In this document: in pieces, positions 39,005-64,000 of the stretch | Layout of the letters: each line of letters opens with the position of its first letter | Numbering within the stretch: position 1 is the first letter of the stretch | Assembly: GCF_023343835.1 (NCBI RefSeq) | Contig: NC_064458.1 | Coordinates: forward strand, 4,665,829-4,729,828 | DNA from: Lagopus muta | Taxonomy: Eukaryota | Direction of reading: 5' to 3' | DNA: 64,000 bases | Notes under the pieces: generated by a model | What the model saw: the letters and a program-made list of their open reading frames with translations, nothing else | Told to the model about the DNA's origin: nothing | Database searches by the model: none | Program-made: the position numbers and the translations under genes

Positions 39005-39960
39005 ATTACAGAATCACAGAATCACAGAATGGCCAGGGTTAGAAGGGACCTCAAGGATCATGAAGCTCCAACCCTCCTGCCACATGCAGGGCCACCAAAC
39101 TCCCCATTTAATACTAGACCAGATTGACCAGGGCCCCATCCAGCCTGGCCTTGAACACCTCCAGGGATGGACGGGGCATCCACAGCCTCTCTGGGCAGCT
39201 GTTCCACCACCTCACCACTCTCTCTGTAAAGAATTTCCCCCTAACGTCCTACCTCAATTTTCCCTCCCTCAACATCAAATCATTTCCCCTTGTCCTGCAG
39301 TTATCTATCGTTTCAGAGTTGATTCCCCTCCTGTTTGTAGGCTCCCTTTAGGCGCTGAAAGGCTGCAATGAGGTCACCCCACAGCCTTCTTTTCTGAAGG
39401 CTGAACAAACCCAGCTCTCTCAGTCTGTCTTTGTAGGGGAGCTGTTCCAGCCCCTGATCATCTTCATGGCTCTCCCCTGGACCCTCTCCAACAGCTCCCT
39501 GTCTTTTTTGTACTGGGGGTTCCAGACCTGGACACAGTGCTGCAGATAGGGCCTCACAAGAGCAGAGTAGAGGGGGACAATCACCTCCCTGTCCCTGCTG
39601 GCCAGCCTTCTTCTGATGGAGCACAGGATACCATTTGCATTCCAAGCCACAAGAGCACACTGCTGGCTCATGTTTTGTTTTTCATCTATCAAGACTCCCA
39701 GGTCCCTCTCTCTCAAGGTCTCAGGTCCCCTGCTCTCAAGGAGCTCCTTCCAGTCTGTAAGGATGCCTGGGATTCCTCCAGCCCAATGCCAAACTCTGCA
39801 TTTTGCTGTGTTGAACCTCATCAGGTTCACCCAGGCCCACCTTTCCAGCCTGTCACTCCATCACCAAAGGCCTCCAGCTGGCCCTGCGCCAGCACCCGAC
39901 TTCGTGACAGCCCACGTGGTTCAACCAGAGAACCCAACTGTGCCAGTATCCATAGCCCTT
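39005..39960 (-). mobile_element. CR1 LINE fragment (3' tail plus ORF2 RT C-terminal half); it forms the left boundary of tandem-array copy 1
   Basis: The plus strand reads cagaatcacagaatcacagaatggccagggttagaagggacctcaaggatcatgaagctccaaccc…cagcctctctgggcagctgttccaccacctcaccactctctctgtaaagaatttcccc. Minus-strand ORFs are …[86 protein letters not shown]… and …[33 protein letters not shown]. Confidence 0.85.
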
Positions 39961-40719
39961 ATTAAAAAGAGCAAAATGAGGCCGTGAAAATCAGCTCCTT
40001 TAATAAGAAAGGAAATACGTTCTAAGAGGGGGGTAGAAGAAGAGGATGAGAATGAAGCCAGGCCATGACAAGAACGGCAGGAGGAAGAGGCCGAACTCAT
40101 AAAGGAGACGAGAACCATTTGACTCCTGAGCACGAGTGAGCTGACAGATATGTGAAAAGACTTCAGCTGTCATGCAGGGGAGCACTCTGACACTGGGAGA
40201 ACGGGGCCGCAAGCCTGGACTAGGCGGGCAGCAAAGGCAGGCATCTGGGATCTCTTTCACGGGCAGGGTGCATTGGCAAAGCCCTTGGAAATGAGGCACG
40301 AGCCTTCCCCTCGTGGAGGTGACTCTCCGTAAGGGCCGAGAGGGAAAGGAGTCCCTTCAAAGAAGATCTGGTATGTTACCCAGGCAAGCGGTGCACCGTG
40401 GGGAAAGGTGTGCCTGAGGGCACCAGCTCTTCTGGAGGTGATGCGTAATGCTGAAAAAAGAGGGGAGATACAGACTGGCTGTTGGCCGGCAATTGCTGAT
40501 TCTGAGGGCCCAGGGCTGCCGCCATCTTGCTTGGGAGCCTGGGACGCATTCCGCCCCGAGGGGGTAACCGTGATGTCACAGTGGTGGCAGGGAGCGGCCA
40601 TTGTGACCCGCGGGGCTGGGAGCAGAGCAAAGGCTGCCGGGCTCAGAGCGTGGTCAGTGCGGCCTGGTGAGGTGCAGAGAGAGCAGGGACTCTTCAAGTG
40701 CTCACCGTTGACGCGCAAC

Positions 40720-43510
40720 ATGTCCAGTAGGAAGCGGAAGGCCCCCGACTCCGGGGAGCAAGGTGAGAGCAAAGCATCCCTGCGTGCAGCTCCCCGCCGC
40801 CGGGCAGAGGGGTGCTGGGGGTCTGCCAGCGGCAGAGAGGGAAGGGAGGGGCAGGAGCAAGGAGCACGGCCCTGGGGACCGCCCTCAGGGACAACTGGCC
40901 CCGCAAGGTGCTCACTGCTGCCCGCCTTTGCTCTCTCCTCTCCAGTGTGCATGCTGTGTCGCCGGGCGGATGTCGACCCGAACATCTGCGGGCGCACCTT
41001 TGCCGAGAGCGACCTTTGCGTGCATGAGTTCTGCTTGGTGAGTTCCAACCCTCAAGGGCTCCTGCCAGCTTCCTGCCAGGGATGCTCCCTTCCTGTCTGT
41101 CCTAATGAGATCCTGCTCTGCTCTTTCCCACAGCTTTTTTCTTTGAAGAAAAACACATTCTTTGAAGAAAGCGACCCCTGGGAGGAAACGCTGCGCCTCC
41201 CCGTTGGGACCATCAGATGCAGAATCAAGCAGGCGGACCAGAAGGTGAGCTTTGTGCCAGGAGAGGCTCACGCCAGCTTAGTCTGCACCCAGAGAAAGCA
41301 ATGGCAGCCCTTCCAGCGGGCTCCAGGGCAAAGTCCTGCCATAGCAGACGAGCCTTCTCCGCCAGGCGGCTCTGCAGAGTGGAGCCCAGCAGCTTCCGCA
41401 GCCTGTGCCCTGCCCAGAGGTGTGGGGCCGGCCGTGGAGGCCCTGAGCCTGCTGCTGATCGGGGCTGCCTTGTTCCTTTCAGCAATGCTTTGTTTGTGGC
41501 GAGAGAGGAGCCGCCATCAGCTGCGCAGAGAGAGGCTGTGCACGCAGCTTCCACCTGCCCTGCGCCGCGGACGGTGAATGCGTCACCCAGTTCTTTGGGC
41601 AGCACAGGTAAGGGCTGTCAGCAGCAGCCAAGCCAGGGAGGAACCCACAGCGACAGCTCCCAGCAGCCTGCCAGAGATGGGGCCTGGGGCTCCTGCCTGC
41701 TGCTCTGCCCTCCTGGCAGTGCTTCTCACTGTGCCCATCACTTGCATCGTCCCCCAGGTCCTTCTGCTGCGAGCACCGCCCGCGACAGGCAGCGGAGGCA
41801 GCTCCACCCCAAGGCACTGACTGCGTCATCTGCCTGGAGCCCCTGGAGGACAGCACGTCCTACCAGACCCTGTGGTGCCCAGCGTGCAAGCACACCTGGT
41901 TCCACCGCCGCTGCGTCCAGGTAGAAGCCCTCCCCTCACCCTGCGGCCACGGCCCGCGCTCAGCAGCACCGAGCCCCGCTCACGCTCACGCTGCTTCTGC
42001 TTCTCCGGCAGGGGCAGGCCACGAACGCCGGCACCATGTGCTTCCAGTGCCCCATTTGTTGAGACACGGAGCAATTCCGGGCAGAAATGTCCACTCTGGG
42101 GATCCAAGTCCCAGTCAGGTTGGTGTCCTTCTCCCCAGCGCTGCAGATGGGAAGGCGCGAGCGCTGGGCCTGCCCAGGGACTGTCCCGGCAGGCCTGGCC
42201 CTTTGCTGTCTCACCAGCACAGGCCTCAGCTTCACGGAGAAGCTGGAAATGGGGTTGCCTTGGATGAACGGGGATACCCCGGATCACACATGGCAGGGAA
42301 CCGGGAACTCATCGCATTCCCTCCCTTCTCTTGTAGGAGACCGTCTTGGTGGGATGACAACACCTACCCATCACTTCTGCGGAGGCACAGGCGCTGCGAT
42401 GTCAGCAAGTGCCTTTACCCAGGAGGCAGGGAGCAGGCAGAGGTGAATGGGTGAGTTACCTCAGCAGCCCTCTGGGCTTCTGCAGGGGATCTCCCCCTCA
42501 ACACCGGATGGGGAACCAGGGCTGAGCACCGCAGATGTGCCGGCCGCTGCCTGGCTTGGCTCACTTTGTCCTCACAGCCACAACCCGTTTGCTTCCCCAG
42601 GCCCTGGCAGCTGCTGCTCTGCAGCTCCTGTGCTGCAGAAGGGACCCACCGACGATGCTCCTACCTGAGCAACAGAGTTGGCAGCTGGGAGTGTGACAGC
42701 TGTGCTGGCATAGGCACCGGTAAGATGCAAACAGCTGTGGCTCCCTAGGCGGGGGCCGGGCAACGCCTGGCAGTGGGTGCTGCTCAGGGCGGCCCTGCCA
42801 GGCTCTCTCTGCCCCAGGAAGGAGGGCAGCCCGTTGCGACTCAAGGCTGCAGCTTCATCCCAATGATCACCTTCCTGCTTTCCTTTACAGCCTCCAGCAG
42901 CAACACGGAGCGCGCCGGACCCAGCACCAACACGGAGCGCGCCGGCCCCAGCACTTCCAGCCAAGGGGCTCCGGAGCCTCCCCGTGGCTCCCAGGGACCG
43001 GAGAACATCAGCTCCGGCTCCAGCAGCCAGGCAGCATCGGGCCCCTCACACCGGTCCCAGCTGCCTGAGAACAGCCGCCTGCCCAGTGAGCCTGGGACAC
43101 GGCAGAGGGCAATCGGCCCACGCCTCCCTGAGGATCAGGAGGCATCTCTGCAGCGCCGAGGACGCCGCGGGAGCGGCCGTGCAACAGCCCCGCGCACCAG
43201 CAGCAGCTCCCGCAGGTCCACCCCACGGAGGGCACCGCGGCCCTCCAGCGACTCCCCGGTGGCTGCACCCAGAAGGAGCCCCAGGCAGCAGGGGACGGGC
43301 CGGGCACGAAGCCGCTCCCCGCTTCAAGATCGGGCCTCACGTTCCCAGAGCCGGCCCAGAAGAAGCCGTGGCAGCAGACAAACACCACGCCGAGCTGCAC
43401 AGAGCAGCACCCTCTGCTCAGCCGCCCCAGTGACATCGAGGCCCTCGAGGGGTTCCCCGCTGCCTGGACACAGAAGACCCTCCAGGCAGCAAGGGAGGGC
43501 CCACACATGA
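40720..43510 (+). pseudogene. PHF7-like (PHD/ePHD zinc-finger, RING-like) gene with an SR/basic C-terminal tail, copy 1; premature TGA in exon 6. Exons: 40720-40762, 40946-41037, 41134-41244, 41483-41607, 41758-41920, 42012-42118, 42337-42450, 42601-42719, 42891-43510.
   Basis: Spliced product: MSSRKRKAPDSGEQ|VCMLCRRADVDPNICGRTFAESDLCVHEFCL|LFSLKKNTFFEESDPWEE..IRCRIKQADQK|QCFVCGERGAAISCAERGCARSFHLPCAADGECVTQFFGQHR|SFCCEHRPRQAAEAAPPQGTDCVICLEPLEDSTSYQTLWCPACKHTWFHRRCVQ|GQATNAGTMCFQCPIC*DTEQFRAEMSTLGIQVPVR|RPSWWDDNTYPSLLRRHRRCDVSKCLYPGGREQAEVNG|PWQLLLCSSCAAEGTHRRCSYLSNRVGSWECDSCAGIGT|ASSSNTERAGPS...RS-rich 206 aa...GRAHT*. Block-for-block it matches mammalian PHF7, recalled from memory ([118 protein letters not shown]). 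All introns are GT-AG. Codon 42060-42062 is TGA here but CGA in copies 2 and 3. Confidence 0.7.
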
Positions 43511-43692
43511 AGCCCTTCCGCAGCGGGATGTCAGGCTGCGACTTCCCACACAGACCCCAGCACGCCGCAGCAGCCAAACCCAACAGCAGCGGCCAGCCTG
43601 GGCACAAAGCTGCTCCCAGGTCCATCTGCAGAACCACATCCCCACAGCCAGACCTCAGTCTGCACAGGAGCAGCCGGGTGCCAATGACACCT

Positions 43693-43850
43693 GCTCAACT
43701 TGGTCAACATCAGCCAAGACGACAAATCCCACGCTCATTTACATCAGCTTGCTCAACTTGGTCAACATCAGCCAAGACGACAAATCCACGCTCATTTACA
43801 TCAGCTTGCTCAACTTGGTCAACATCAGCCAAGACAATAAATCCCACCCC
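43693..43850 (+). repeat. 58-bp minisatellite ×~3 (gctcaacttggtcaacatcagccaagacgacaaatcccacgctcatttacatcagctt), ~180 bp downstream of the PHF7-like stop. Copies also at 53802-53959 and 63911-64000 (partial).
   Basis: Direct repeats start at 43693, 43751 and 43808; the second lacks one C and the third diverges at its 3' end. Confidence 0.8.
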
Positions 43851-43929
43851 CACCCCCATCAGCTTCATTCTTCTCGTCTTTTCCTGGGGTGGGCAGAGTT
43901 CAGACCTCGACCACAGGGTTGCCTTCTCC

Positions 43930-45085
43930 CCAGCAGAATGGCTCAGGTTGGAGGGGCCCTTAAATATCATCCGGCTCTAACCCCCTTGCCGTGAGCAGGT
44001 TCATGCACCACCAGATCAGGATGCCCAGGATCCCATCCACCCTGGCCTCAAAGGACTCCAGCAACGGGGTGTCCTGAACCCCTCAGGGAGGAACCTCGCT
44101 GTTCCAGTGCCTCGCCACTCCCTGAGGAAACAGTTTCTTTCTAACACCTCATCTCTCTCTATCCTCTTTTAGTTTCATGCCATTCCCCCTTGTCCTGTCA
44201 CTATCAGAATGCATGAAAAAGTCAGTCCTCCTCCAGCTTGGCAGGACCCTTAAAAGTACGAGAAGGCTGTGGGCACAGAGGTCTCCTCAGAGCCTTCTGT
44301 TCTGAAAGCGAAGTGAACCCCACTCCCTCAACCTGCCTTCTGAGGTGCGGTGCTCCAGGCCTTGTCTTCTCTTTGCGGCCCTCCTCCGGACCCCCCCTCC
44401 CACCGCTCCACACCCCTCCTGTGCTTGGCACCCCAGGCTTGGGCGCAGTACTCCAGATGGATGCCCTCGCAAGGGCACAGCAGAGACGGACAATCACCGC
44501 CCTGCCCTGCTGGACACCTTCCTCAGGCCTTCCGGGCTGCAGGCACGCGCTGCTGGCTCATCTCCGGCTTTTTGGCCATTACGACCCCCAGGTCCTTCTC
44601 CACAGGGCTTCTCTCGCTGTCTTCTCCTCCCAGTCTCCACCCGTATCTGCGACTGCCTCAACCCAATCGCAACACCTTGCACTGGGCCTTGTTAAACCTC
44701 ACGAGATGCTCACGTGCCCTGTATTCCAGCCTGGGTCCAGGTCCCTCTGGATAGCGTCTCTGCCTTCTGCTGTGCCAAGCGCACCATCAGCTCGGTGCCG
44801 TCAGCTGGGGGTGCACTCAATCCCACCGTCTGTGTCCTTGATAAAAATGCTCACGAGCATCAGTCCCCAGACGGACCCCTGGGTGCCCGGCCTCCACCTG
44901 GACACAGAGCCGCTGGCAGCAATCCTCGGGCACAACATCCAAACAACCTGCATCCACCTGTCTGTTCAACACTCAAATGCACATCTCTCCACTTCAGACA
45001 TTAGGAGGTGCTGTGGGACGAAGACATCAGTCGCCCTTCCTTTGTCCATCACAGCCATCACTCCATCACCAAAGGCCTCCAGATG
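43930..45085 (-). mobile_element. CR1 LINE fragment (older, diverged) inside the repeat unit; copy also at 54039-55194
   Basis: …ctcgctgttccagtgcctcgccactccctgaggaaacagtttctttctaacacctcatctctctctatcctcttttagtttcatgccattcccccttgtcctgtcactatc…ggcgcagtactccagatggatgccctcgcaagggcacagcagagacggacaatcaccgccctgccctgctggacacc…catcactccatcaccaaaggcctccag is the reverse complement of the CR1 3' tail and ORF2 3' region. Confidence 0.7.
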
Positions 45086-46799
45086 GCTCAGGCACAGCCG
45101 CCCTTGCTGAAGCCGTGCTGGCTGTCTTAGGTCGCCTCCCCATCTCGCGTGTGCCTTCACATCTCCTCCAGGAGGATCCACCCCGCCATGTTCCCAGGCC
45201 CACAGATGAGGCACAGCGGCCTTCAGGCCCAGCTGGCTTCTGGCCCAGCCCCACTGAGGCACGAGGTCTCAAGTCAGGATGGATCAAGGCTCTGCTGGCA
45301 GGGCAGCCCAATTCTGGGGGTGTTTCATGGCTTGGGGTTGCCACTGTTCTGTATCGTTCATTCATTAGCAGCAAACCATTTCCATTTGTAGTATTTTTTA
45401 AAGCGTTGGGGGGAAAAAAAAGGAGAGAAACAAAGCGTAAAACTGGTGGGATATCTGACTTCTTTTTTCGTGAAGGTAGTGCGTCAATGCCTCGTTTGAT
45501 GTCAATGGTTGCAATTTTTCGTGAGGTCTTAATGCGTTTGTCAGATTTCTGATGAAATTTTACTCTTGCCATGCAATTGTTCACAAGCGTGCTGACTGCC
45601 AAAACGCGATGACGTGAATAAGGCTTGACTGCAAAGCGAGGGATATTTCTGTCTGTTAAAAGAGGTCTGACAGAAGTCCAGTCAGGAGACATGGTTAGAT
45701 TTTGGAGTCGAATATCTGGTTGGAACTCCAGGCATTCCAATTGAAAACTGGCAGGTAATGCATTTGTATCAACTTAAAATGGGGTCACCCACATAAAGGG
45801 ATGATTTTTTGGCAAAATTGAAACCGGTTTCCAAATTCCTTTATCAAAAGAGAAAGCATGGCTGCACATTCTTTGCTGTTCAGAGCACTGCGTGGGGCCG
45901 GGGCTGGGCTGCACTGCTGGCTGTGCGGAGCTGCGCATTGGGTACACCTGCTCTGGGTCCCAGAGAGAGCTCCAACACACAAAGTAAAGCAATACGGTGC
46001 CCAACTCTCTTGCAAAATACTACTTTAGGATTCAGCATTCACCAAGAAAGAGCAAACCTAGCTTTTACAACAGCTCACACAAATTACCCAAAGACACCCT
46101 GTGAGACAGAAAGCATGAAGATTCATGGAGGCAATCAGCTTTTTTTGGGGTGGAGTTTCAAGCACGCAGCCCAGCCTGGAGCACAGCCCCTTTTCCGTTT
46201 GTAATCCTGCAGGAGTAGAGCACCTGCTGGGGCACAGAGCATCATCTGGACAGTTTCCACTGACAGAAGTAGAGCATCATACTGGGGCAGAAAAAGAAAA
46301 AAAAAAGAAAAGAGCATAGCTATATTAAAATACTTTGAACTGAACTTTTCACCCTGCAGGATGAGCTCACTTCAGGGCTCACATCGTGAGAGGTTTGGAA
46401 AAAAATATTCAAACATCCTGATTTGTGTTTCCAGTGCTACGGATTAAAAGCTGCAGAAATGCCTTCTCCTCCACCATCCATCAACTCTGATCCTGGGACA
46501 GAGACCCACAAACTCCTCAGGGTTGGAAGGGTCCTCTGAGGGCCATCCGGACCAACCCCCCTGCAGCGCACAGGGACACCGCAGCTGGGTCAGGTCTCCA
46601 GGGACGGAGCACCCAGCGCACCTCTGTGCGACCTGTGCCAGTGCCTCACCACCTCTCTGCAGAAGATTTCGTCCCTATAGCCAACCTAAACCTCCCCTCT
46701 TGGAGCTTGCAGCCATTTCCCTCTCGGAGCTGGAAACCACACTGACACTTTGGTCAGTTTTGGAGCAGAAAATGAGATGAGATGTAGATAGACAGATAA

Positions 46800-47420
46800 C
46801 TCGATGTTTTTCTTCCTTGATTTACTATTTATTATGACCTCGCTGACCGACTGCACGCCGCACGCCCAGCACCGCCGCCAGCTCCAAGCACCACCAGCCC
46901 GCCGCGCCGCCAGCGCAGCGCCCTTACACCAACGAGCCGCCGCTTCCGCTCTTCTCGGCACATGCGCAGCACCAGCAGGAGGACCCGCTACCATCGAGTT
47001 GGAGGGCTGGAGGCACAGAGCAGTCAGAGCAAAGAGGCACCACTTCCGGGTTTCCGGAGGCGTCAGTGTCTGGAGGATCGCTTCGTATTACCGCAGGGAC
47101 GGGCGGTACGGAGCGGAGAGAGCAGAGCGACGCGTCGTGCCGCTCCGGGACGGCTCTGTGGTGCTCTGCGGGACCGTGCGGGCCCCGGGGGGCCCAGAGC
47201 GCCCAGAGCTCGTCTGACCCCCCGCTGCCCCTAAAACCGCCGCCGCGGCGGTCCCGACTGCAATTCTGCGCTCCGGTCAAGCGGTGGCAGCAGAGACCGA
47301 GAAAAGAGCGGCGTGGGGCGTGGGTACCGGCGATGGGAGCGGAGCGAGCCTGGGGCTTGGCTCTGCTCGGGTAAATGCGTCCATTCCAACTGCATTCAGG
47401 CTCGGCTAGCTCTGAGCTCT
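46800..47420. promoter_or_regulatory. CpG island (very CG-dense; cgccgc/gcgcgc runs) inside the repeat unit; copy also at 56909-57529
   Basis: Dense CpG content, e.g. gaccgactgcacgccgcacgcccagcaccgccgccagctccaagcaccaccagcccgccgcgccgccagcgcagcgccc… and ccgccgccgcggcggtcccgactgcaattctgcgctccggtcaagcgg. It ends at a possible ATG-plus-donor (47333-47370). Confidence 0.6.
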
Positions 47421-48989
47421 GCCAAAGTGGTTGGCATTTGTCATTGCTGAGCGCACAAAAGGCTCGACCAAAGGTGACGATGCCCGGAAGGCAGAAGGAT
47501 GGAGAAAAGCGTGGCCACATCCCTGGCACGGAGCCGAGCCCGTAGCTGGAGAAGGGGGTTGTTCTGCCGGATGTGGACTGGGAGCGGTTCTGTGCCACGG
47601 CCCGAATCTGCCCTTCTTTGGCTTCGGTCGGGCCAGGAGCTGCTGCGCGGTGCCGCACACCGTGCGTGTGCCGTAACCCCACGCTGCTCCGTGTGCACGG
47701 TGGTTGTGGAGGGCCGTGGTTGTGGGGGGGACCCGAGACCGCCTTCAGCCGGGCGACTGACTCCTGGCTTCTCCGCTGTACTTCGTACAACCTGTGTTTG
47801 TTGTGCACCTTTCACAAGCGTGTGACAGTACAGTGTTTGCTCTGATGCCTTCACAAGGCTGTCACAGCCGTGTCTCCTGTCTCCGGTTAGCCTGTCCACG
47901 GGTCCACCTGTGAACCAGACAGAAAGAGGGCGAGAATTCACAGTGTTACAGTTCTGTATGGCATTGTCACAGTCTGAGCCACAAAGAAACACGTCGCTTC
48001 CTTCACACGCCTACAGAGTATTGAGAGTGAGACATAAATATGTGCGTATACATGCATACAGAGCGTCTGATCCTTCACCAATCATAACAGAACTTCTTTT
48101 CACCAGCTGCGTATTCACATAGGTTTCACCTTTATAAATGTCCACAGTCCATAAATGCCTCATGAAGCTCATGCAGACTGGGACGTGCTTGATCGTTTTT
48201 CCAAATCATTTCACTGATGGGCTCCGCCACAAGCTCACCTGAAGCGCAACGGTGCCCAAGCCCAGTGAAAAGTGTTGAAAAGCAGCAAGGGGCTGGAGAT
48301 GGAGAAGGGTGAAAGAAGAGCTCGGGTGATGTTTGCACAAAGAACAGAACGTGGAGAGGAACAGCATCCCCAGGTCTTCAAATAGACAGAAGTGTTGAGA
48401 TTGTTTCACTCCCTTCTTCAAGAGTGGATGTGCAGTGGGGTTCATGCCAGCTGACCAGAAAGACACCAAACCTCTATTCATCAGGGGAAGAGAAGGGTTA
48501 GGATGAGCCTGGAAATTATCAACTACTTGGTGTACCATCCAGTCCCGGGACAATTCTAGAAGCTATCACCCAAAAAGTCTTTCTCAAAAGGTGAAATTTC
48601 CTAATGATTTTTGAAGTAGAAGTCACTCTAAGAGGAAATCAGATACAGTTGCACATACAGCACACAGTCCAAATGCGCAGAAATTTCTGTGCAAACTGTG
48701 CAAAACAAAATGGTAACAAACTCGTGAATGCCTCAGAACAAAAACTGTGCTGCTATGCTCCTGCGAAAGGTGCAGAACAAACATGTTGTGCGTGAGCACA
48801 ATGGAGAAGTCCGGAGTTTGTTGTCTTGCTTAAGGCGGTCTCGGTTCGATCCCCAGCCCCCCACACAACCACCACGCAATGGGAGAAGCATGACTGGTAT
48901 GGCATGCACACGGTACATGGCACCAGGCACACTCCACGCCATCTGGAAACTGCTCCTGAGCCAATTGGAAGGGCCCATCCTATGGCATA

Positions 48990-49990
48990 AAATGCATTGC
49001 CGACTCCACAGTAGGACCGTCACCCCGGACTTTGGGAGAGCAGGACCTCCTCAGTGGGCCTGCTTGGAGGTATCCCATGGACGGGAGCTTTGGCAAGTAG
49101 GCCCGAGAGAGCTGCTTGACACTTAAACACCGCTTCCTCCAAGCTCAAGATGGATGCATCCCTGAGAGCAAGAAAGCAGGGAAAAGTGGCAGGAGAACTG
49201 CTGGATAAGCAAGGGGCTCATGGATGGACTCAAAGGGAAGAGGAGCGTACACAGCACGTGGAAGAAGGGCATTTCTACTTGGAAAGAATGTATGAGCGTT
49301 GTCAGGGCCTGCAAGGATGCAATGAGGAAGGCTAAGGCACCCTTGGGATTAAATCCAGCAAAGGCGGTCGAGGAGAACAACAAGGGCTTTTGTGAGAATG
49401 TTGGTAGTAAAACTAAGACTGGAACACATGCGGGTCTGCCACTGAATGCCTTGGTAACAAGGGACAAAGAGAAGGCAGAGGTACTGAATGCCTTCTTTGC
49501 TTCCATCTTTACTACTAAGATTGCCCCTCCTAAATCCCAGGCCCTGGCGGTAAGAGAGAGAGTCTGGGGAATTAAAGACTTCCTCCTGCTTGAGGAGGAT
49601 CTGAACAGGAAGCGTGCAGGCAAAATCAGTGCTCGCAAATTCATGGGCCCTGTGGGGATGCACCCACGTGTGCTGAGAGAGCTGGTGGAGGTAATTGCTG
49701 AACTGCTCTCTATGATCTTGGAGAGGCCTTGGAGAACAGGAGAGCTGCCTGGATGCTGGAGGACAGCCAGCTTCGCACCAGTCATCGCACCGATGAGTGG
49801 GCAGTGAGATGGACTGGGAACTGGCTTGACGACCAAGAGATGATGGAGGGGCCTGGAGCATCTTCCTCACGAGAAAAGGCTGAGAGACCTAGGACTCTTC
49901 AGTCTGGAGAAGAAACGCATGAGCGGGGGATCTCATAACAGTTTGGCCCACTGCGACGGGCCCTGCGTCTGCTCCAAGCCATGAGACAGG
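48990..49990 (+). mobile_element. CR1 LINE fragment (ORF2 EN–RT linker region, internal deletion, then …GLFSLEKKR… segment) forming the 3' end of each repeat unit; copy also at 59099-60099
   Basis: ORF 49220-49807 is …KAKAPLGLNPAKAVEENNKGFCENVGSKTKTGTHAGLPLNALVTRDKEKAEVLNAFFASIFTTKIAPPKSQALAVRERVWG…RKFMGPVGMHPRVLRELVEVIAELLSMILERPWRTGELPGCWRTASFAPV (CR1 ORF2: KAKAQLELNLA..KDNKK.FYKY..SKR….AE.FNAFFASVF…HKSMGPDGIHPRVLKELADVIA.PLSIIF.RSW.SGEVP.DWK.ANV.PV), then …EKAERPRTLQSGEETHERGIS ([19 protein letters not shown]). Confidence 0.8.
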
Positions 49991-50828
49991 CCCTGCGCCA
50001 GCACCCGACTTCGTGACAGCCCACGTGGTTCAACCAGAGAACCCAACTGTGCCAGTATCCATAGCCCTTATTAAAAAGAGCAAAATGAGGCCGTGAAAAT
50101 CAGCTCCTTTAATAAGAAAGGAAATACGTTCTAAGAGGGGGGTAGAAGAAGAGGATGAGAATGAAGCCAGGCCATGACAAGAACGGCAGGAGGAAGAGGC
50201 CGAACTCATAAAGGAGACGAGAACCATTTGACTCCTGAGCACGAGTGAGCTGACAGATATGTGAAAAGACTTCAGCTGTCATGCAGGGGAGCACTCTGAC
50301 ACTGGGAGAACGGGGCCGCAAGCCTGGACTAGGCGGGCAGCAAAGGCAGGCATCTGGGATCTCTTTCACGGGCAGGGTGCATTGGCAAAGCCCTTGGAAA
50401 TGAGGCACGAGCCTTCCCCTCGTGGAGGTGACTCTCCGTAAGGGCCGAGAGGGAAAGGAGTCCCTTCAAAGAAGATCTGGTATGTTACCCAGGCAAGCGG
50501 TGCACCGTGGGGAAAGGTGTGCCTGAGGGCACCAGCTCTTCTGGAGGTGATGCGTAATGCTGAAAAAAGAGGGGAGATACAGACTGGCTGTTGGCCGGCA
50601 ATTGCTGATTCTGAGGGCCCAGGGCTGCCGCCATCTTGCTTGGGAGCCTGGGACGCATTCCGCCCCGAGGGGGTAACCGTGATGTCACAGTGGTGGCAGG
50701 GAGCGGCCATTGTGACCCGCGGGGCTGGGAGCAGAGCAAAGGCTGCCGGGCTCAGAGCGTGGTCAGTGCGGCCTGGTGAGGTGCAGAGAGAGCAGGGACT
50801 CTTCAAGTGCTCACCGTTGACGCGCAAC

Positions 50829-53619
50829 ATGTCCAGTAGGAAGCGGAAGGCCCCCGACTCCGGGGAGCAAGGTGAGAGCAAAGCATCCCTGCGTGCAGCT
50901 CCCCGCCGCCGGGCAGAGGGGTGCTGGGGGTCTGCCAGCGGCAGAGAGGGAAGGGAGGGGCAGGAGCAAGGAGCACGGCCCTGGGGACCGCCCTCAGGGA
51001 CAACTGGCCCCGCAAGGTGCTCACTGCTGCCCGCCTTTGCTCTCTCCTCTCCAGTGTGCATGCTGTGTCGCCGGGCGGATGTCGACCCGAACATCTGCGG
51101 GCGCACCTTTGCCGAGAGCGACCTTTGCGTGCATGAGTTCTGCTTGGTGAGTTCCAACCCTCAAGGGCTCCTGCCAGCTTCCTGCCAGGGATGCTCCCTT
51201 CCTGTCTGTCCTAACGAGATCCTGCTCTGCTCTTTCCCACAGCTTTTTTCTTTGAAGAAAAACACATTCTTTGAAGAAAGCGACCCCTGGGAGGAAACGC
51301 TGCGCCTCCCCGTTGGGACCATCAGATGCAGAATCAAGCAGGCGGACCAGAAGGTGAGCTTTGTGCCAGGAGAGGCTCACGCCAGCTTAGTCTGCACCCA
51401 GAGAAAGCAATGGCAGCCCTTCCAGCGGGCTCCAGGGCAAAGTCCTGCCATAGCAGACGAGCCTTCTCCGCCAGGCGGCTCTGCAGAGTGGAGCCCAGCA
51501 GCTTCCGCAGCCTGTGCCCTGCCCAGAGGTGTGGGGCCGGCCGTGGAGGCCCTGAGCCTGCTGCTGATCGGGGCTGCCTTGTTCCTTTCAGCAATGCTTT
51601 GTTTGTGGCGAGAGAGGAGCCGCCATCAGCTGCGCAGAGAGAGGCTGTGCACGCAGCTTCCACCTGCCCTGCGCCGCGGACGGTGAATGCGTCACCCAGT
51701 TCTTTGGGCAGCACAGGTAAGGGCTGTCAGCAGCAGCCAAGCCAGGGAGGAACCCACAGCGACAGCTCCCAGCAGCCTGCCAGAGATGGGGCCTGGGGCT
51801 CCTGCCTGCTGCTCTGCCCTCCTGGCAGTGCTTCTCACTGTGCCCATCACTTGCATCGTCCCCCAGGTCCTTCTGCTGCGAGCACCGCCCGCGACAGGCA
51901 GCGGAGGCAGCTCCACCCCAAGGCACTGACTGCGTCATCTGCCTGGAGCCCCTGGAGGACAGCACGTCCTACCAGACCCTGTGGTGCCCAGCGTGCAAGC
52001 ACACCTGGTTCCACCGCCGCTGCGTCCAGGTAGAAGCCCTCCCCTCACCCTGCGGCCACGGCCCGCGCTCAGCAGCACCGAGCCCCGCTCACGCTCACGC
52101 TGCTTCTGCTTCTCCGGCAGGGGCAGGCCACGAACGCCGGCACCATGTGCTTCCAGTGCCCCATTTGTCGAGACACGGAGCAATTCCGGGCAGAAATGTC
52201 CACTCTGGGGATCCAAGTCCCAGTCAGGTTGGTGTCCTTCTCCCCAGCGCTGCAGATGGGAAGGCGCGAGCGCTGGGCCTGCCCAGGGACTGTCCCGGCA
52301 GGCCTGGCCCTTTGCTGTCTCACCAGCACAGGCCTCAGCTTCACGGAGAAGCTGGAAATGGGGTTGCCTTGGATGAACGGGGATACCCCGGATCACACAT
52401 GGCAGGGAACCGGGAACTCATCGCATTCCCTCCCTTCTCTTGTAGGAGACCGTCTTGGTGGGATGACAACACCTACCCATCACTTCTGCGGAGGCACAGG
52501 CGCTGCGATGTCAGCAAGTGCCTTTACCCAGGAGGCAGGGAGCAGGCAGAGGTGAATGGGTGAGTTACCTCAGCAGCCCTCTGGGCTTCTGCAGGGGATC
52601 TCCCCCTCAACACCGGATGGGGAACCAGGGCTGAGCACCGCAGATGTGCCGGCCGCTGCCTGGCTTGGCTCACTTTGTCCTCACAGCCACAACCCGTTTG
52701 CTTCCCCAGGCCCTGGCAGCTGCTGCTCTGCAGCTCCTGTGCTGCAGAAGGGACCCACCGACGATGCTCCTACCTGAGCAACAGAGTTGGCAGCTGGGAG
52801 TGTGACAGCTGTGCTGGCATAGGCACCGGTAAGATGCAAACAGCTGTGGCTCCCTAGGCGGGGGCCGGGCAACGCCTGGCAGTGGGTGCTGCTCAGGGCG
52901 GCCCTGCCAGGCTCTCTCTGCCCCAGGAAGGAGGGCAGCCCGTTGCGACTCAAGGCTGCAGCTTCATCCCAATGATCACCTTCCTGCTTTCCTTTACAGC
53001 CTCCAGCAGCAACACGGAGCGCGCCGGACCCAGCACCAACACGGAGCGCGCCGGCCCCAGCACTTCCAGCCAAGGGGCTCCGGAGCCTCCCCGTGGCTCC
53101 CAGGGACCGGAGAACATCAGCTCCGGCTCCAGCAGCCAGGCAGCATCGGGCCCCTCACACCGGTCCCAGCTGCCTGAGAACAGCCGCCTGCCCAGTGAGC
53201 CTGGGACACGGCAGAGGGCAATCGGCCCACGCCTCCCTGAGGATCAGGAGGCATCTCTGCAGCGCCGAGGACGCCGCGGGAGCGGCCGTGCAACAGCCCC
53301 GCGCACCAGCAGCAGCTCCCGCAGGTCCACCCCACGGAGGGCACCGCGGCCCTCCAGCGACTCCCCGGTGGCTGCACCCAGAAGGAGCCCCAGGCAGCAG
53401 GGGACGGGCCGGGCACGAAGCCGCTCCCCGCTTCAAGATCGGGCCTCACGTTCCCAGAGCCGGCCCAGAAGAAGCCGTGGCAGCAGACAAACACCACGCC
53501 GAGCTGCACAGAGCAGCACCCTCTGCTCAGCCGCCCCAGTGACATCGAGGCCCTCGAGGGGTTCCCCGCTGCCTGGACACAGAAGACCCTCCAGGCAGCA
53601 AGGGAGGGCCCACACATGA
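50829..53619 (+). CDS. PHF7-like gene with SR/basic tail, copy 2 (apparently intact, ~497 aa). Exons: 50829-50871, 51055-51146, 51243-51353, 51592-51716, 51867-52029, 52121-52227, 52446-52559, 52710-52828, 53000-53619.
   Basis: Same exon structure as copy 1, shifted by +10109. Exon 6 reads MCFQCPICRDTEQFRAEMSTLGIQVPVR (CGA at 52169-52171), so the reading frame is open through to the stop at 53617-53619. Confidence 0.75.
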
Positions 53620-60937: not shown

Positions 60938-63728
60938 ATGTCCAGTAGGAAGCGGAAGGCCCCCGACTCCGGGGAGCAAGGTGAGAGCAAAGCATCCCTG
61001 CGTGCAGCTCCCCGCCGCCGGGCAGAGGGGTGCTGGGGGTCTGCCAGCGGCAGAGAGGGAAGGAAGGGGCAGGAGCAAGGAGCACGGCCCTGGGGACCGC
61101 CCTCAGGGACAACTGGCCCCGCAAGGTGCTCACTGCTGCCCGCCTTTGCTCTCTCCTCTCCAGTGTGCATGCTGTGTCGCCGGGCGGATGTCGACCCGAA
61201 CATCTGCGGGCGCACCTTTGCCGAGAGCGACCTTTGCGTGCATGAGTTCTGCTTGGTGAGTTCCAACCCTCAAGGGCTCCTGCCAGCTTCCTGCCAGGGA
61301 TGCTCCCTTCCTGTCTGTCCTAACGAGATCCTGCTCTGCTCTTTCCCACAGCTTTTTTCTTTGAAGAAAAACACATTCTTTGAAGAAAGCGACCCCTGGG
61401 AGGAAACGCTGCGCCTCCCCGTTGGGACCATCAGATGCAGAATCAAGCAGGCGGACCAGAAGGTGAGCTTTGTGCCAGGAGAGGCTCACGCCAGCTTAGT
61501 CTGCACCCAGAGAAAGCAATGGCAGCCCTTCCAGCGGGCTCCAGGGCAAAGTCCTGCCATAGCAGACGAGCCTTCTCCGCCAGGCGGCTCTGCAGAGTGG
61601 AGCCCAGCAGCTTCCGCAGCCTGTGCCCTGCCCAGAGGTGTGGGGCCGGCCGTGGAGGCCCTGAGCCTGCTGCTGATCGGGGCTGCCTTGTTCCTTTCAG
61701 CAATGCTTTGTTTGTGGCGAGAGAGGAGCCGCCATCAGCTGCGCAGAGAGAGGCTGTGCACGCAGCTTCCACCTGCCCTGCGCCGCGGACGGTGAATGCG
61801 TCACCCAGTTCTTTGGGCAGCACAGGTAAGGGCTGTCAGCAGCAGCCAAGCCAGGGAGGAACCCACAGCGACAGCTCCCAGCAGCCTGCCAGAGATGGGG
61901 CCTGGGGCTCCTGCCTGCTGCTCTGCCCTCCTGGCAGTGCTTCTCACTGTGCCCATCACTTGCATCGTCCCCCAGGTCCTTCTGCTGCGAGCACCGCCCG
62001 CGACAGGCAGCGGAGGCAGCTCCACCCCAAGGCACTGACTGCGTCATCTGCCTGGAGCCCCTGGAGGACAGCACGTCCTACCAGACCCTGTGGTGCCCAG
62101 CGTGCAAGCACACCTGGTTCCACCGCCGCTGCGTCCAGGTAGAAGCCCTCCCCTCACCCTGCGGCCACGGCCCACGCTCAGCAGCACCGAGCCCCGCTCA
62201 CGCTCACGCTGCTTCTGCTTCTCCGGCAGGGGCAGGCCACGAACGCCGGCACCATGTGCTTCCAGTGCCCCATTTGTCGAGACACGGAGCAATTCCGGGC
62301 AGAAATGTCCACTCTGGGGATCCAAGTCCCAGTCAGGTTGGTGTCCTTCTCCCCAGCGCTGCAGATGGGAAGGCGCGAGCGCTGGGCCTGCCCAGGGACT
62401 GTCCCGGCAGGCCTGGCCCTTTGCTGTCTCACCAGCACAGGCCTCAGCTTCACGGAGAAGCTGGAAATGGGGTTGCCTTGGATGAACGGGGATACCCCGG
62501 ATCACACATGGCAGGGAACCGGGAACTCATCGCATTCCCTCCCTTCTCTTGTAGGAGACCGTCTTGGTGGGATGACAACACCTACCCATCACTTCTGCGG
62601 AGGCACAGGCGCTGCGATGTCAGCAAGTGCCTTTACCCAGGAGGCAGGGAGCAGGCAGAGGTGAATGGGTGAGTTACCTCAGCAGCCCTCTGGGCTTCTG
62701 CAGGGGATCTCCCTCTCAACACCGGATGGGGAACCAGGGCTGAGCACCGCAGATGTGCCGGCCGCTGCCTGGCTTGGCTCACTTTGTCCTCACAGCCACA
62801 ACCCGTTTGCTTCCCCAGGCCCTGGCAGCTGCTGCTCTGCAGCTCCTGTGCTGCAGAAGGGACCCACCGACGATGCTCCTACCTGAGCAACAGAGTTGGC
62901 AGCTGGGAGTGTGACAGCTGTGCTGGCATAGGCACCGGTAAGATGCAAACAGCTGTGGCTCCCTAGGCGGGGGCCGGGCAACGCCTGGCAGTGGGTGCTG
63001 CTCAGGGCGGCCCTGCCAGGCTCTCTCTGCCCCAGGAAGGAGGGCAGCCCGTTGCGACTCAAGGCTGCAGCTTCATCCCAATGATCACCTTCCTGCTTTC
63101 CTTTACAGCCTCCAGCAGCAACACGGAGCGCGCCGGACCCAGCACCAACACGGAGCGCGCCGGCCCCAGCACTTCCAGCCAAGGGGCTCCGGAGCCTCCC
63201 CGTGGCTCCCAGGGACCGGAGAACATCAGCTCCGGCTCCAGCAGCCAGGCAGCATCGGGCCCCTCACACCGGTCCCAGCTGCCTGAGAACAGCCGCCTGC
63301 CCAGTGAGCCTGGGACACGGCAGAGGGCAATCGGCCCACGCCTCCCTGAGGATCAGGAGGCATCTCTGCAGCGCCGAGGACGCCGCGGGAGCGGCCGTGC
63401 AACAGCCCCGCGCACCAGCAGCAGCTCCCGCAGGTCCACCCCACGGAGGGCACCGCGGCCCTCCAGCGACTCCCCGGTGGCTGCACCCAGAAGGAGCCCC
63501 AGGCAGCAGGGGACGGGCCGGGCACGAAGCCGCTCCCCGCTTCAAGATCGGGCCTCACGTTCCCAGAGCCGGCCCAGAAGAAGCCGTGGCAGCAGACAAA
63601 CACCACGCCGAGCTGCACAGAGCAGCACCCTCTGCTCAGCCGCCCCAGTGACATCGAGGCCCTCGAGGGGTTCCCCGCTGCCTGGACACAGAAGACCCTC
63701 CAGGCAGCAAGGGAGGGCCCACACATGA
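60938..63728 (+). CDS. PHF7-like gene with SR/basic tail, copy 3 (apparently intact). Exons: 60938-60980, 61164-61255, 61352-61462, 61701-61825, 61976-62138, 62230-62336, 62555-62668, 62819-62937, 63109-63728.
   Basis: Copy 1 coordinates shifted by +20218. CGA at 62278-62280. The differences from copies 1 and 2 that I located are non-coding (60925 in the 5'UTR at -13, 61064 in intron 1, 62174 in intron 5, 62714 in intron 7). Confidence 0.75.
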
Positions 63729-64000
63729 AGCCCTTCCGCAGCGGGATGTCAGGCTGCGACTTCCCACACAGACCCCAGCACGCCGCAGCAGCCAAACCCA
63801 ACAGCAGCGGCCAGCCTGGGCACAAAGCTGCTCCCAGGTCCATCTGCAGAACCACATCCCCACAGCCAGACCTCAGTCTGCACAGGAGCAGCCGGGTGCC
63901 AATGACACCTGCTCAACTTGGTCAACATCAGCCAAGACGACAAATCCCACGCTCATTTACATCAGCTTGCTCAACTTGGTCAACATCAGCCAAGACGACA

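What the first reader, a model, noticed from the sequence alone, without database searches (positions are those of the whole stretch)
42891..43510. The PHF7-like protein carries a 206-aa Ser/Arg/Pro-rich, protamine/SR-like C-terminal extension encoded by one large terminal exon
The last exon encodes …SRRSTPRRAPRPSSDSPVAAPRRSPRQQGTGRARSRSPLQDRASRSQSRPRRSRGSRQTPRR…, a very basic, low-complexity RS/PR tail. It includes a near-perfect tandem duplication of the peptide NTERAGPST. Mammalian PHF7 is described as a testis-specific chromatin ubiquitin ligase acting in histone-to-protamine replacement. A PHF7 catalytic core fused to an SR/protamine-like DNA- or RNA-binding tail, present in multiple copies, would be a lineage-specific innovation worth characterising: is it a nuclear basic protein, or an SR-domain splicing-speckle protein?
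Basis: partly seen in the sequence, partly recalled or inferred. Interest (0 to 1): 0.7.

Follow-up and report, generated by a model that had tools for sequence, protein, structure and literature searches.

The report
Basic disordered tail of bird PHF7-like
The flagged exon encodes the disordered, arginine/serine-rich C-terminal tail found on PHF7-like testis ubiquitin ligases across birds; the protein is already in RefSeq for rock ptarmigan, and the flagged gene copy has a premature stop codon upstream of the tail.

Summary
Window 42891-43510 (+) is a single terminal exon, joined in frame to exon 8. It encodes 206 aa (43 Ser, 40 Arg, 27 Pro, no Lys, pI ~12) and contains a 27-nt tandem duplication (NTERAGPST x2).

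- **Already annotated.** The 497-aa protein is identical to RefSeq XP_048783379/380, "PHD finger protein 7-like" of Lagopus muta. Its core aligns to the mouse PHF7 crystal structure (E = 1.5e-59).
- **Not array-specific.** The same alignable tail occurs in PHF7-like proteins from rhea, ducks, Galliformes and Neoaves. It shares the start GTASSxxSELAGPSTASQ and a conserved basic module, RTRSRSPLQxRAxxSQSRPRRxRGSR.
- **Bird-restricted as far as tested.** A tail-only profile search of 1.84 billion proteins found 73 hits. Every named hit among the 20 I looked up is a bird. None of the hits inspected is an SR splicing factor or a protamine.
- **Not a true RS domain or protamine.** The tail fails the usual RS-domain and protamine criteria. 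AlphaFold2 predicts it disordered.
- **Flagged copy is broken.** Copy 1 has an in-frame TGA at codon 195 (42060-42062). Copies 2 and 3 read CGA and are intact.
- **Family already published.** The avian PHF7 amplification is described in the literature.

Most likely role (inferred): a phospho-regulated basic tail that adds DNA/chromatin affinity and nuclear targeting. Interest is low to moderate.

The parts
42891..43510 (+). Terminal exon 9 of PHF7-like copy 1. It encodes the 206-aa Ser/Arg/Pro-rich tail plus the stop codon (TGA at 43508-43510).
   Evidence: The product is identical to the C-terminus of RefSeq XP_048783379/380.
40720..42719 (+). Exons 1-8 of copy 1: 40720-40762, 40946-41037, 41134-41244, 41483-41607, 41758-41920, 42012-42118, 42337-42450, 42601-42719. 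They encode the ePHD-RING-PHD core.
   Evidence: All junctions are GT-AG. Pfam finds zf-HC5HC2H and zf-RING_2. PDB 8JWJ matches at E = 1.5e-59.
42060..42062 (+). In-frame TGA at codon 195 in exon 6, in copy 1 only. It falls just after the last CxxC of the RING. It truncates the protein before the C-terminal PHD and the tail.
   Evidence: Copies 2 and 3 read CGA at 52169-52171 and 62278-62280. Orthologues have Gln at this position. No SECIS was found in the unit.
42894..42954 (+). 27-nt tandem duplication encoding NTERAGPST twice.
   Evidence: TRF gives period 27, 2.3 copies, 94% matches. The duplication is also present in Lagopus leucura, Tympanuchus and Chrysolophus orthologues. Chicken has a single copy.
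43301..43387 (+). Conserved basic module RARSRSPLQDRASRSQSRPRRSRGSRQTP, the best-conserved part of the tail.
   Evidence: Translation. A loose pattern for the start of the module is found in 62 of 120 avian homologues. R431, R433, S434, A440 and R449 are conserved in at least 29 of 31 aligned birds.
53000..53619 (+). Tail exon of copy 2, which is an intact gene. Its CDS differs from copy 1 only at codon 195.
63109..63728 (+). Tail exon of copy 3, which is an intact gene.
39880..49988 (+). First 10,109-bp tandem unit. It repeats at 49989-60097 and, cut by the window end, at 60098-64000.
   Evidence: Self-BLAST gives 99.97% and 99.82% identity. There are 3-7 substitutions between copies, all transitions.
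43511..43640 (+). 3' flank that looks like a decayed remnant of a second, more Arg-rich module. Other paralogues continue here as GRAHTRSRSPVGRRASTSRSRPRGGRGSRSRQRG...
   Evidence: The non-Arg positions align. Where the paralogues have Arg, the window reads *, P, C, Q, H and similar residues.
43259..43631 (+). GT..AG interval inside exon 9 and the 3' UTR. One RefSeq isoform from another array copy (XP_048783196, P0138) uses it as an intron, which removes the basic half of the tail.
   Evidence: The P0138 sequence reads ...SSDSP|NHIPTARPQ.... I mapped it onto the sequence by hand.

Best explanation
The exon encodes the normal C-terminal tail of a bird-type PHF7 paralogue, 'PHD finger protein 7-like' of Lagopus muta. 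The protein is a folded ePHD-RING-PHD histone E3 ligase core (residues ~15-290) followed by a ~200-aa intrinsically disordered tail.

**Tail anatomy**
- A near-neutral Ser/Pro/Gln-rich linker of ~85 aa comes first.
- A strongly basic Arg/Ser-rich part of ~120 aa follows (net charge about +30, no Lys).
- The basic part is built around a conserved module, RxRSRSPLQxRAxxSQSRPRRxRGSR.
- The tail is an old feature of avian PHF7 genes that predates their amplification. It is not a fusion to an SR protein or a protamine.

**Likely mechanism (inferred, not shown)**
- The basic part adds non-specific electrostatic affinity for DNA, nucleosomes or RNA, on top of the DNA-binding ePHD.
- It probably also supports nuclear import.
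- Its many Ser, SP and RS sites would allow phosphorylation to switch binding off and on. SRPK1-type or proline-directed kinases, active in spermatids, are plausible candidates.

**The three copies in the window**
- Copy 1, the flagged copy, carries R195* (CGA to TGA at a CpG). It should yield a truncated, inactive product and an NMD-prone mRNA, so its tail is not expected to be made.
- Copies 2 and 3 are intact.
For: **Shown here**
- The gene model is in frame across all nine exons.
- The product is identical to RefSeq XP_048783379/380.
- The core is PHF7.
- AlphaFold2 gives pLDDT 31-41 and no secondary structure for residues 292-497.
- The tail aligns across birds with conserved positions.
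- Tail-only phmmer finds 10 hits, all avian PHF7-like fragments or unnamed metagenome contigs.
- A tail profile searched against 1.84e9 proteins finds only 73 hits. Every named one among the 20 I looked up is avian. Those with flanking sequence carry the PHF7 PHD.
- Ptarmigan versus chicken orthologues: tail dN/dS is 0.57 (C-terminal half 0.45), core 0.41, shifted frames 0.87-1.03.
- The only two tail indels are in frame, 27 and 12 nt. Introns have 16% gap columns.
- The chicken orthologue also sits in a ~9.75-kb tandem array, in two assemblies.

**From the literature**
- All three PHF7 domains are needed for activity. The ePHD binds nucleosomal DNA. Human PHF7 has an unstructured tail at 308-381 (PMC10760634).
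- The chicken PHF7 copies are testis-enriched (PMC6609395).
- SRPK1 is described as involved in protamine phosphorylation in the testis, and it phosphorylates the RS domain of the lamin B receptor (abstracts of PMC13327716 and PMC4841541).
Against: - I have no expression, protein or binding data for this species.
- Substitution-level constraint on the tail is weak. The bootstrap interval for dN/dS is 0.31-1.2, which includes 1.
- Exon 9 nucleotide identity (92.1%) is about the same as intron identity (91.4%).
- The tail evolves roughly 1.3-2 times faster than the core at the amino-acid level.
- Annotated isoforms that drop the tail or its basic half exist in the family: intron-8 read-through in other paralogues, and the intra-exon-9 splice in P0138. 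The tail may therefore be dispensable for some functions.
- Mouse PHF7 works without such a tail.
- The proposed DNA-binding, NLS and phospho-switch roles rest on composition and analogy only.
Confidence: 0.6

Rival explanations
1. The tail is a true RS domain. It would send the ligase to nuclear speckles or spliceosomal complexes through SR-protein-type interactions, making the protein an SR-related RNA-processing factor.
For: There are 17 RS/SR dipeptides, including RSRS within the conserved module. NCBI's pipeline names some paralogues 'serine/arginine repetitive matrix protein 2-like'.
Against: - The best 50-aa window has 36% RS/SR coverage, below the >40% convention for an RS domain.
- The longest alternating run is only 4 residues.
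- There is no RRM.
- Tail-only searches find no SRSF or SRRM proteins. The 'SRRM2-like' names sit on PHF7-like fragments that carry PF26054.
- The core is a chromatin-directed ligase.
Confidence: 0.1
2. The tail makes the protein itself a sperm nuclear basic protein, similar to a protamine or a transition protein, that packs DNA structurally.
For: The C-terminal 121 aa have a net charge of about +30 and the tail pI is ~12. Other paralogues end in much more Arg-rich runs, such as ...RSRSRVQHRSRRPRSRSQRRRR. The genes are amplified and testis-enriched in chicken.
Against: - Arg is 19% overall and 30% at most per 50 aa, against ~59% in galline (sequence from memory).
- The protein is 497 aa with a folded enzyme core.
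- This paralogue has lost the most Arg-rich terminal module.
- Tail-only searches show no similarity to protamines.
Confidence: 0.07
3. The tail is a tolerated, largely unconstrained low-complexity appendage with no specific function. It would persist by drift and be shaped by GC-rich, repeat-prone DNA.
For: - The tail dN/dS interval includes 1, and the N-terminal half is at 0.80.
- Exon 9 and intron substitution identity are about equal.
- Tail length varies from 60 to more than 360 aa among paralogues, with internal duplications.
- Isoforms lacking the tail are annotated.
- Mouse PHF7 lacks a tail.
Against: - The reading frame and the alignable motifs are kept from Palaeognathae to Neoaves, and across paralogues only 45-60% identical overall.
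- The basic module has near-invariant residues.
- Tail indels are in frame, whereas introns are gap-rich.
- Shifted frames give a higher dN/dS.
Confidence: 0.18
4. The whole array is non-functional (pseudogenes) or an assembly artefact, so the tail is never made from any copy.
For: Copy 1 has a nonsense codon. The copies are 99.8-99.97% identical.
Against: - Copies 2 and 3 are intact over all nine exons.
- The copies differ by real transitions rather than homopolymer indels.
- The same array exists in two chicken assemblies with intact 484-aa products.
- Intact 497-aa orthologues exist in two other grouse species.
- Core dN/dS is 0.41.
Confidence: 0.05

Closest known systems
Amplified avian PHF7 / 'PHD finger protein 7-like' genes (chicken, turkey; Fouchecourt et al. 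2019 BMC Evol Biol, PMC6609395; Fouchecourt et al. 2022 Genomics, cited in PMC10360393 and PMC11835228)
   Same: - The ePHD-RING-PHD core is the same.
- The genes are organised in tandem arrays in the same way.
- The chicken orthologue (P0002) is 85% identical over the full length, including the tail, and sits in a ~9.75-kb array next to MVP.
- The exact ptarmigan protein is in RefSeq.
   Different: - The ptarmigan, grouse and pheasant orthologues carry the 9-aa NTERAGPST duplication and a 4-aa insertion that chicken lacks.
- Copy 1 in the window has a nonsense codon.
- The open papers I could read discuss copy number and expression, not the tail. The 2022 Genomics paper was not available.
Mammalian PHF7 (mouse and human), the E3 ligase for H3K14 and H2A in spermatids; structures 8JWJ, 8JWU, 1WEQ
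   Same: - The three zinc-finger domains align over residues 11-299 at E = 1.5e-59.
- There is no HECT domain.
- Human PHF7 also has an unstructured C-terminal tail, residues 308-381.
   Different: - The avian tail is 2-4 times longer, Arg/Ser/Pro-rich, and has bird-specific motifs.
- The tail profile search found no non-avian protein among the hits I checked.
- Mouse PHF7 has no tail.
- PHF7 is not reported as amplified in mammals; the sources treat the expansion as distinctive to birds.
RS domains of SR and SR-related proteins (SRSF1-12, SRRM1/2, LBR)
   Same: Both are disordered and Arg/Ser-rich, with scattered RS/SR dipeptides and SP sites that are plausible kinase targets.
   Different: - RS coverage is below the 40% convention.
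- There are no long RS runs and no RRM.
- No sequence relationship appears in tail-only searches.
Protamines (chicken galline) and transition proteins
   Same: Both are highly basic, use Arg rather than Lys, contain Ser, and belong to a testis context.
   Different: - Arg content is far lower (19% against ~59%).
- The tail is attached to a 290-aa enzyme.
- The first 85 aa are not basic.
Drosophila Phf7 with its lineage-specific C-terminus (PMC7973481)
   Same: It is a precedent: a conserved PHF7 core carrying a lineage-specific C-terminal extension that is functionally required (abstract).
   Different: The sequences are unrelated, and the role in flies (germline sex identity) is different. 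This is an analogy only.

Membership tests
PHF7 family (PHF7/G2E3-type ePHD-RING-PHD E3 ligases) | N-terminal extended PHD (zf-HC5HC2H) | tested here: met
   PF13771 at E = 3.6e-12, 46.8 bits against a cut-off of 29.1, residues 41-131. The region aligns to the ePHD structure 8JWS at E = 4e-23.
PHF7 family (PHF7/G2E3-type ePHD-RING-PHD E3 ligases) | Central RING domain | tested here: met
   PF13639 at 28.0 bits against a cut-off of 27.3, residues 145-195. This is a marginal pass. All Cys/His ligand columns are invariant across 32 bird homologues. The region aligns to the RING of 8JWJ.
PHF7 family (PHF7/G2E3-type ePHD-RING-PHD E3 ligases) | C-terminal PHD (PHD_G2E3) | tested here: met
   Residues 222-290 match the PHF7 PHD structure 1WEQ at E = 7e-15. 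PF26054 is precomputed for the identical RefSeq protein. AlphaFold2 modelled this domain poorly.
PHF7 family (PHF7/G2E3-type ePHD-RING-PHD E3 ligases) | No HECT domain (this separates PHF7 from G2E3) | tested here: met
   There is no HECT hit in Pfam. The sequence after the PHD is the disordered tail, which has no Pfam match.
PHF7 family (PHF7/G2E3-type ePHD-RING-PHD E3 ligases) | Testis or spermatid expression and histone ubiquitination activity | not testable with these tools
   Only literature on chicken paralogues (relative testis expression >= 50%, PMC6609395) and on mouse PHF7 biochemistry is available.
SR proteins / RS-domain proteins (Manley & Krainer 2010 convention, from my own knowledge) | RS domain of at least 50 aa with more than 40% RS content in consecutive RS/SR repeats | tested here: not met
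   The best 50-aa window has 36% dipeptide coverage. The whole tail has 15%. The longest alternating run is 4 residues.
SR proteins / RS-domain proteins (Manley & Krainer 2010 convention, from my own knowledge) | One or two N-terminal RRMs | tested here: not met
   Pfam finds no RRM.
Protamines / sperm nuclear basic proteins | Small protein (under ~100 aa) with Arg at or above ~45-50% | tested here: not met
   The protein is 497 aa. Tail Arg is 19%, with a maximum of 30% in any 50 aa. Tail-only searches find no protamines.
Bird-type PHF7 C-terminal tail (defined here from the alignment) | Starts GTASSxxSELAGPSTxSQ right after the PHD and contains the basic module R(T)RSRSPLQxRAxxSQSRPRRxRG | tested here: met
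   The window tail reads GTASSSNTERAGPST... and RARSRSPLQDRASRSQSRPRRSRGSRQTP. A loose pattern for the start of the module occurs in 62 of 120 homologues.

The most novel reading that the evidence does not exclude
Bird spermatids are reported to lack recognised transition proteins (from my own knowledge; not verified here). The amplified PHF7-like ligases might use their Arg/Ser-rich tails as a built-in transition-protein-like module. The same molecule would ubiquitinate histones and then transiently coat the exposed DNA until protamine arrives. Gene amplification would supply the near-stoichiometric amounts this requires.
Probability: 0.06. Interest if true: 0.7.

Novelty: new member of a known kind. 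Interest (0 to 1): 0.25.

Why it matters
This matters little as a discovery. The gene is annotated in RefSeq, the avian PHF7 amplification is published, and variable disordered C-terminal tails are already noted for PHF7.

Two points may be of modest use:
1. The tail is an alignable, apparently bird-restricted feature with a conserved ~29-aa basic module. I found no mention of it in the papers I could read. It gives a concrete handle (tail or module deletions) for asking why birds amplified this histone ligase.
2. The near-identical array copies differ in coding capacity: copy 1 has R195*. Copy counts therefore overstate the number of functional genes.

Tried and rejected
- **Contig look-up for the 590-aa RefSeq isoform.** Nothing was on record. 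I used chicken loci for genomic context instead.
- **Fouchecourt et al. 2022 (Genomics).** The paper is not held. I could not check whether it describes the tail.
- **Pfam on the tail and on the shadow ORFs.** I scanned the +2 frame 42867-43430, the minus strand 43008-43637, and downstream ORFs 43507-43980 and 44238-45110. There were no families. I found no sign of an overlapping gene on either strand.
- **Rfam over the whole 10.1-kb unit.** There were no matches, and in particular no SECIS element that could recode the copy-1 TGA.
- **ORF length as evidence.** I rejected this because all frames are open in this GC-rich stretch.
- **AlphaFold2.** The alignment had only 32 sequences. The ePHD and RING were confident, but the C-terminal PHD was poor (pLDDT 40-50). 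I ran no fold search, and a disordered tail gives a fold search nothing to match.
- **Looking for MVP or other chicken flank sequence in window 1-39,800 by BLASTN.** Only repeat-like matches came back. The long ORFs there look like CR1 LINE fragments.
- **Literature on bird transition proteins.** The search gave nothing usable.
- **'Fusion with an SR protein or protamine'.** I rejected this after the tail-only searches.
Full report
**1. What is in the sequence**

The window is bird DNA. From 39880 onward it consists of a 10,109-bp unit repeated in tandem: 39880-49988, 49989-60097, and 60098 to the window end. The copies are 99.97% and 99.82% identical. They differ by 3-7 substitutions, all of them transitions.

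Each unit holds one nine-exon gene on the + strand, and every intron has GT-AG borders. The exons of copy 1 are 40720-40762, 40946-41037, 41134-41244, 41483-41607, 41758-41920, 42012-42118, 42337-42450, 42601-42719 and 42891-43510. Together they give 1494 nt, or 497 aa.

Exon 8 ends in phase 1 at a GTAAG donor. Exon 9 begins after a polypyrimidine tract and an AG.

Exon 9 encodes 206 aa: 43 Ser, 40 Arg, 27 Pro, no Lys, pI about 12. The NTERAGPST repeat is a 27-nt tandem repeat at 42894-42954 with 94% matches.

ORF length is not evidence of coding here. The +2 frame and the minus strand are also open for 188 and 209 codons. Neither of these, nor the tail, matches any Pfam family.

**2.

In copy 1, the copy at the stated coordinates, codon 195 in exon 6 is TGA (42060-42062, 'tgt TGA gac'). 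Copies 2 and 3 read 'tgt CGA gac'. This is the only coding difference among the three copies.

Orthologues in chicken, two other grouse and a pheasant have Gln at this position. The likely history is CAA to CGA to TGA, with the last step a CpG transition.

The stop falls just after the last CxxC of the RING. It removes the C-terminal PHD and the tail. All three PHF7 domains are needed for E2 recruitment and activity (PMC10760634). The stop also lies three exon junctions upstream of the last exon, so by the usual rule the mRNA should be a target of nonsense-mediated decay (inference). No SECIS element is present in the unit. Copy 1 is therefore most likely a very young pseudogene or null allele. 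Copies 2 and 3 are intact.

**3. Identity**

- The 497-aa product is identical to RefSeq XP_048783379.1 and XP_048783380.1, 'PHD finger protein 7-like [Lagopus muta]'. Longer RefSeq isoforms use an upstream in-frame ATG at 40441.
- Pfam finds the extended PHD and a RING.
- Residues 11-299 align to the mouse PHF7 crystal structures 8JWJ and 8JWU at E = 1.5e-59. Residues 222-290 align to the PHF7 PHD structure 1WEQ at E = 7e-15.
- There is no HECT domain.

**4. Is the tail special to this array?**

It is not. Among the 120 best homologues, all from birds, most carry a tail of 150-370 aa after the PHD. These tails begin GTASSxxSELAGPSTxSQ, are 15-25% Ser and 10-30% Arg, and have pI about 12. The species include Rhea (a palaeognath), ducks and swans, many Galliformes, gulls, raptors, owls and parrots.

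In a 32-sequence alignment the tail aligns in register. Near-invariant positions cluster in a basic module, R(T)RSRSPLQxRAxxSQSRPRRxRGSR. In Neoaves the module reads VRxRDRSRLQRRAQNPYSRPRRRRG. A loose pattern for its start occurs in 62 of 120 homologues. In the window the module is at 43301-43387.

The chicken orthologue is 85% identical, tail included. It lies in a ~9.75-kb tandem array next to MVP on a 5.4-Mb chromosome in both GRCg7 assemblies. A second chicken array on the 20.1-Mb chromosome, next to ATRIP, encodes 602-aa proteins with the same kind of tail.

The 9-aa duplication is shared with Lagopus leucura, Tympanuchus and Chrysolophus. Chicken has one copy.

**5. Is the tail borrowed from an SR protein or a protamine?**

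It is not. A phmmer search with the tail alone found 10 proteins. All were avian PHF7-like fragments or unnamed metagenome contigs. Some were auto-named 'SRRM2-like' but carry the PHF7 PHD domain, PF26054.

A profile of 15 diverse bird tails was searched exhaustively against 1.84 billion representative proteins. Only 73 hits reached E <= 0.001. I looked up 20 of them, including the weakest. Every one with a source name is a bird. Those with flanking sequence show the PHF7 PHD.

The tail is therefore a PHF7-specific sequence and, as far as HMMER sees, restricted to birds.

**6. SR-like or protamine-like?**

The resemblance is in overall composition only.

| Measure | This tail | Comparator (sequence from memory) |
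|---|---|---|
| RS/SR-dipeptide coverage, best 50-aa window | 36% | 63% over the whole 51-aa SRSF1 RS domain |
| RS/SR-dipeptide coverage, whole tail | 15% | - |
| Longest alternating RS run | RSRS (4 residues) | - |
| Arg, whole tail | 19% | 59%, chicken protamine galline |
| Arg, best 50-aa window | 30% | - |

There is no RRM. The first ~85 residues are not basic at all: 8 Arg against 9 Asp+Glu. AlphaFold2 gives the tail pLDDT 31-41 with no secondary structure, while the ePHD and RING are confident.

**7. Is it under constraint?**

- Ptarmigan versus chicken orthologues: dS is about 0.12-0.13 in both parts.
- dN/dS is 0.41 for the core and 0.57 for the tail. Within the tail the N-terminal half is 0.80 and the basic half 0.45. 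The bootstrap interval for the tail is 0.31-1.2.
- The two shifted frames give 1.03 and 0.87.
- The only tail indels are 27 and 12 nt, both in frame. Introns have 16% gap columns. Substitution identity, however, is similar: exon 9 at 92.1%, introns at 91.4%.
- Amino-acid identity is always somewhat lower in the tail than in the core.

| Orthologue | Core identity | Tail identity |
|---|---|---|
| Lagopus leucura | 0.989 | 0.976 |
| Tympanuchus | 0.978 | 0.961 |
| Chrysolophus | 0.920 | 0.887 |
| Gallus | 0.891 | 0.860 |

My reading is that the tail is a fast-evolving but maintained coding region. The strongest evidence is the deep retention of frame and motifs, not the pairwise rates.

**8. 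How it most likely works**

*Shown here:*
- The architecture is a PHF7 E3 core plus a disordered tail.
- The tail has a near-neutral linker followed by a strongly basic half.
- The basic half contains a conserved module.

*From the literature:*
- PHF7 ubiquitinates histone H3 (and H2A) in spermatids and promotes histone-to-protamine exchange.
- Its ePHD binds nucleosomal DNA through basic patches.
- Human PHF7 has an unstructured tail and mouse has none.
- The chicken PHF7 copies are testis-enriched.
- SRPK1 is involved in protamine phosphorylation in the testis and phosphorylates the RS domain of the lamin B receptor (abstracts only).

*Inferred:* the basic half adds non-specific affinity for DNA, nucleosomes or RNA and helps nuclear import. 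Ser phosphorylation at RS and SP sites would modulate that binding. I put about 0.6 on this overall picture. The descriptive part is near certain. The mechanism is about even odds.

*Rivals:*
- An unconstrained appendage (0.18).
- A true RS or speckle domain (0.10).
- A protamine-like or transition-protein-like structural role (0.07).
- A non-functional array or assembly artefact (0.05).

**9. What is known, and novelty**

Amplification of PHF7 in chicken is published, with reported copy numbers of 60-68. Several paralogues are also reported in turkey, duck and zebra finch (PMC6609395; PMC11835228; PMC10360393; PMC12794477). The exact ptarmigan protein is in RefSeq.

None of the accessible papers discusses the tail. 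The key 2022 Genomics paper was not available.

I class this as a new, already annotated member of a known kind. It is the bird-type disordered basic tail of PHF7.

**10. Verdict**

The exon and its composition are real, but the flagged copy is disrupted upstream.
The PHF7 core and the basic tail hold. The SR/protamine, fusion and array-specific claims do not.
- Interest is 0.25.

Noticed in passing
window 42060-42062 (copy 1), against 52169-52171 and 62278-62280: There is a nonsense codon (TGA) at codon 195 in copy 1 only. Copies 2 and 3 have CGA. Chicken, other grouse and a pheasant have Gln there. This suggests CAA to CGA to TGA, with the last step at a new CpG.
   Followed up: yes
window 43511-43640 (+): The 3' flank after the stop aligns, at non-Arg positions, with a second and more Arg-rich module that other paralogues still encode (GRAHTRSRSPVGRRASTSRSRPRGG...). 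Where those paralogues have Arg, the window reads *, P, C, Q, H and similar residues, some of which are single CpG-transition products of Arg codons. This paralogue, and its chicken orthologue, seem to have lost the most protamine-like end of the tail through an R-to-stop change followed by decay.
   Followed up: partly
window 43259-43631 (+): A RefSeq isoform from another array copy (XP_048783196, 574 aa) splices from inside exon 9 (…SSDSP|) to 43632 (NHIPTARPQ…). This replaces the basic half of the tail with sequence read through the 57-bp repeat region.
   Followed up: partly
window 42720-42748 (+): Reading through the exon 8 donor gives GTGKMQTAVAP and then a stop. The result is a ~302-aa tail-less product of about the size of mouse PHF7. 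Comparable 'GTGKRQ…' or 'GTGKMQ…' read-through C-termini are annotated for several bird paralogues (for example P0085, P0030, P0046).
   Followed up: partly
window 43692-43847: There is a 57-bp tandem repeat with 2.7 copies and 95% matches, just downstream of the gene. It is present in every unit.
   Followed up: no
window 40441-40719 (+): An upstream in-frame ATG at 40441 extends the ORF by 93 codons without an intron. RefSeq's 590-aa isoforms use it. The chicken model starts only 3 codons upstream of the ATG used here. The extension looks like 5' UTR read as coding.
   Followed up: partly
window 28269-28721 (+) and 39420-39830 (-): These ORFs have CR1-LINE-like C-terminal sequences (…[15 protein letters not shown]…, …[20 protein letters not shown]…). 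The second lies directly against the start of the tandem array at 39880. The region 1-39,800 is AT-richer (39-51% GC), and this quick scan found no obvious gene there.
   Followed up: no
chicken loci L001-L006 (CM028509.1, CM028550.1) and L007-L008 (CM028493.1): The chicken orthologous array (~9.75-kb period) begins about 10 kb downstream of MVP. A separate PHF7 array on the 20.1-Mb chromosome has a 6.7-kb period and starts next to ATRIP. Copies within a species are near-identical, while orthologues are ~88% identical at the DNA level. This fits concerted evolution or recent re-amplification.
   Followed up: partly
window 39880-64000: All substitutions between the three units are transitions: 3 between units 1 and 2 over 10.1 kb, and 5 between units 2 and 3 over 3.9 kb. 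This argues for real, very recent duplicates rather than assembly noise.
   Followed up: no
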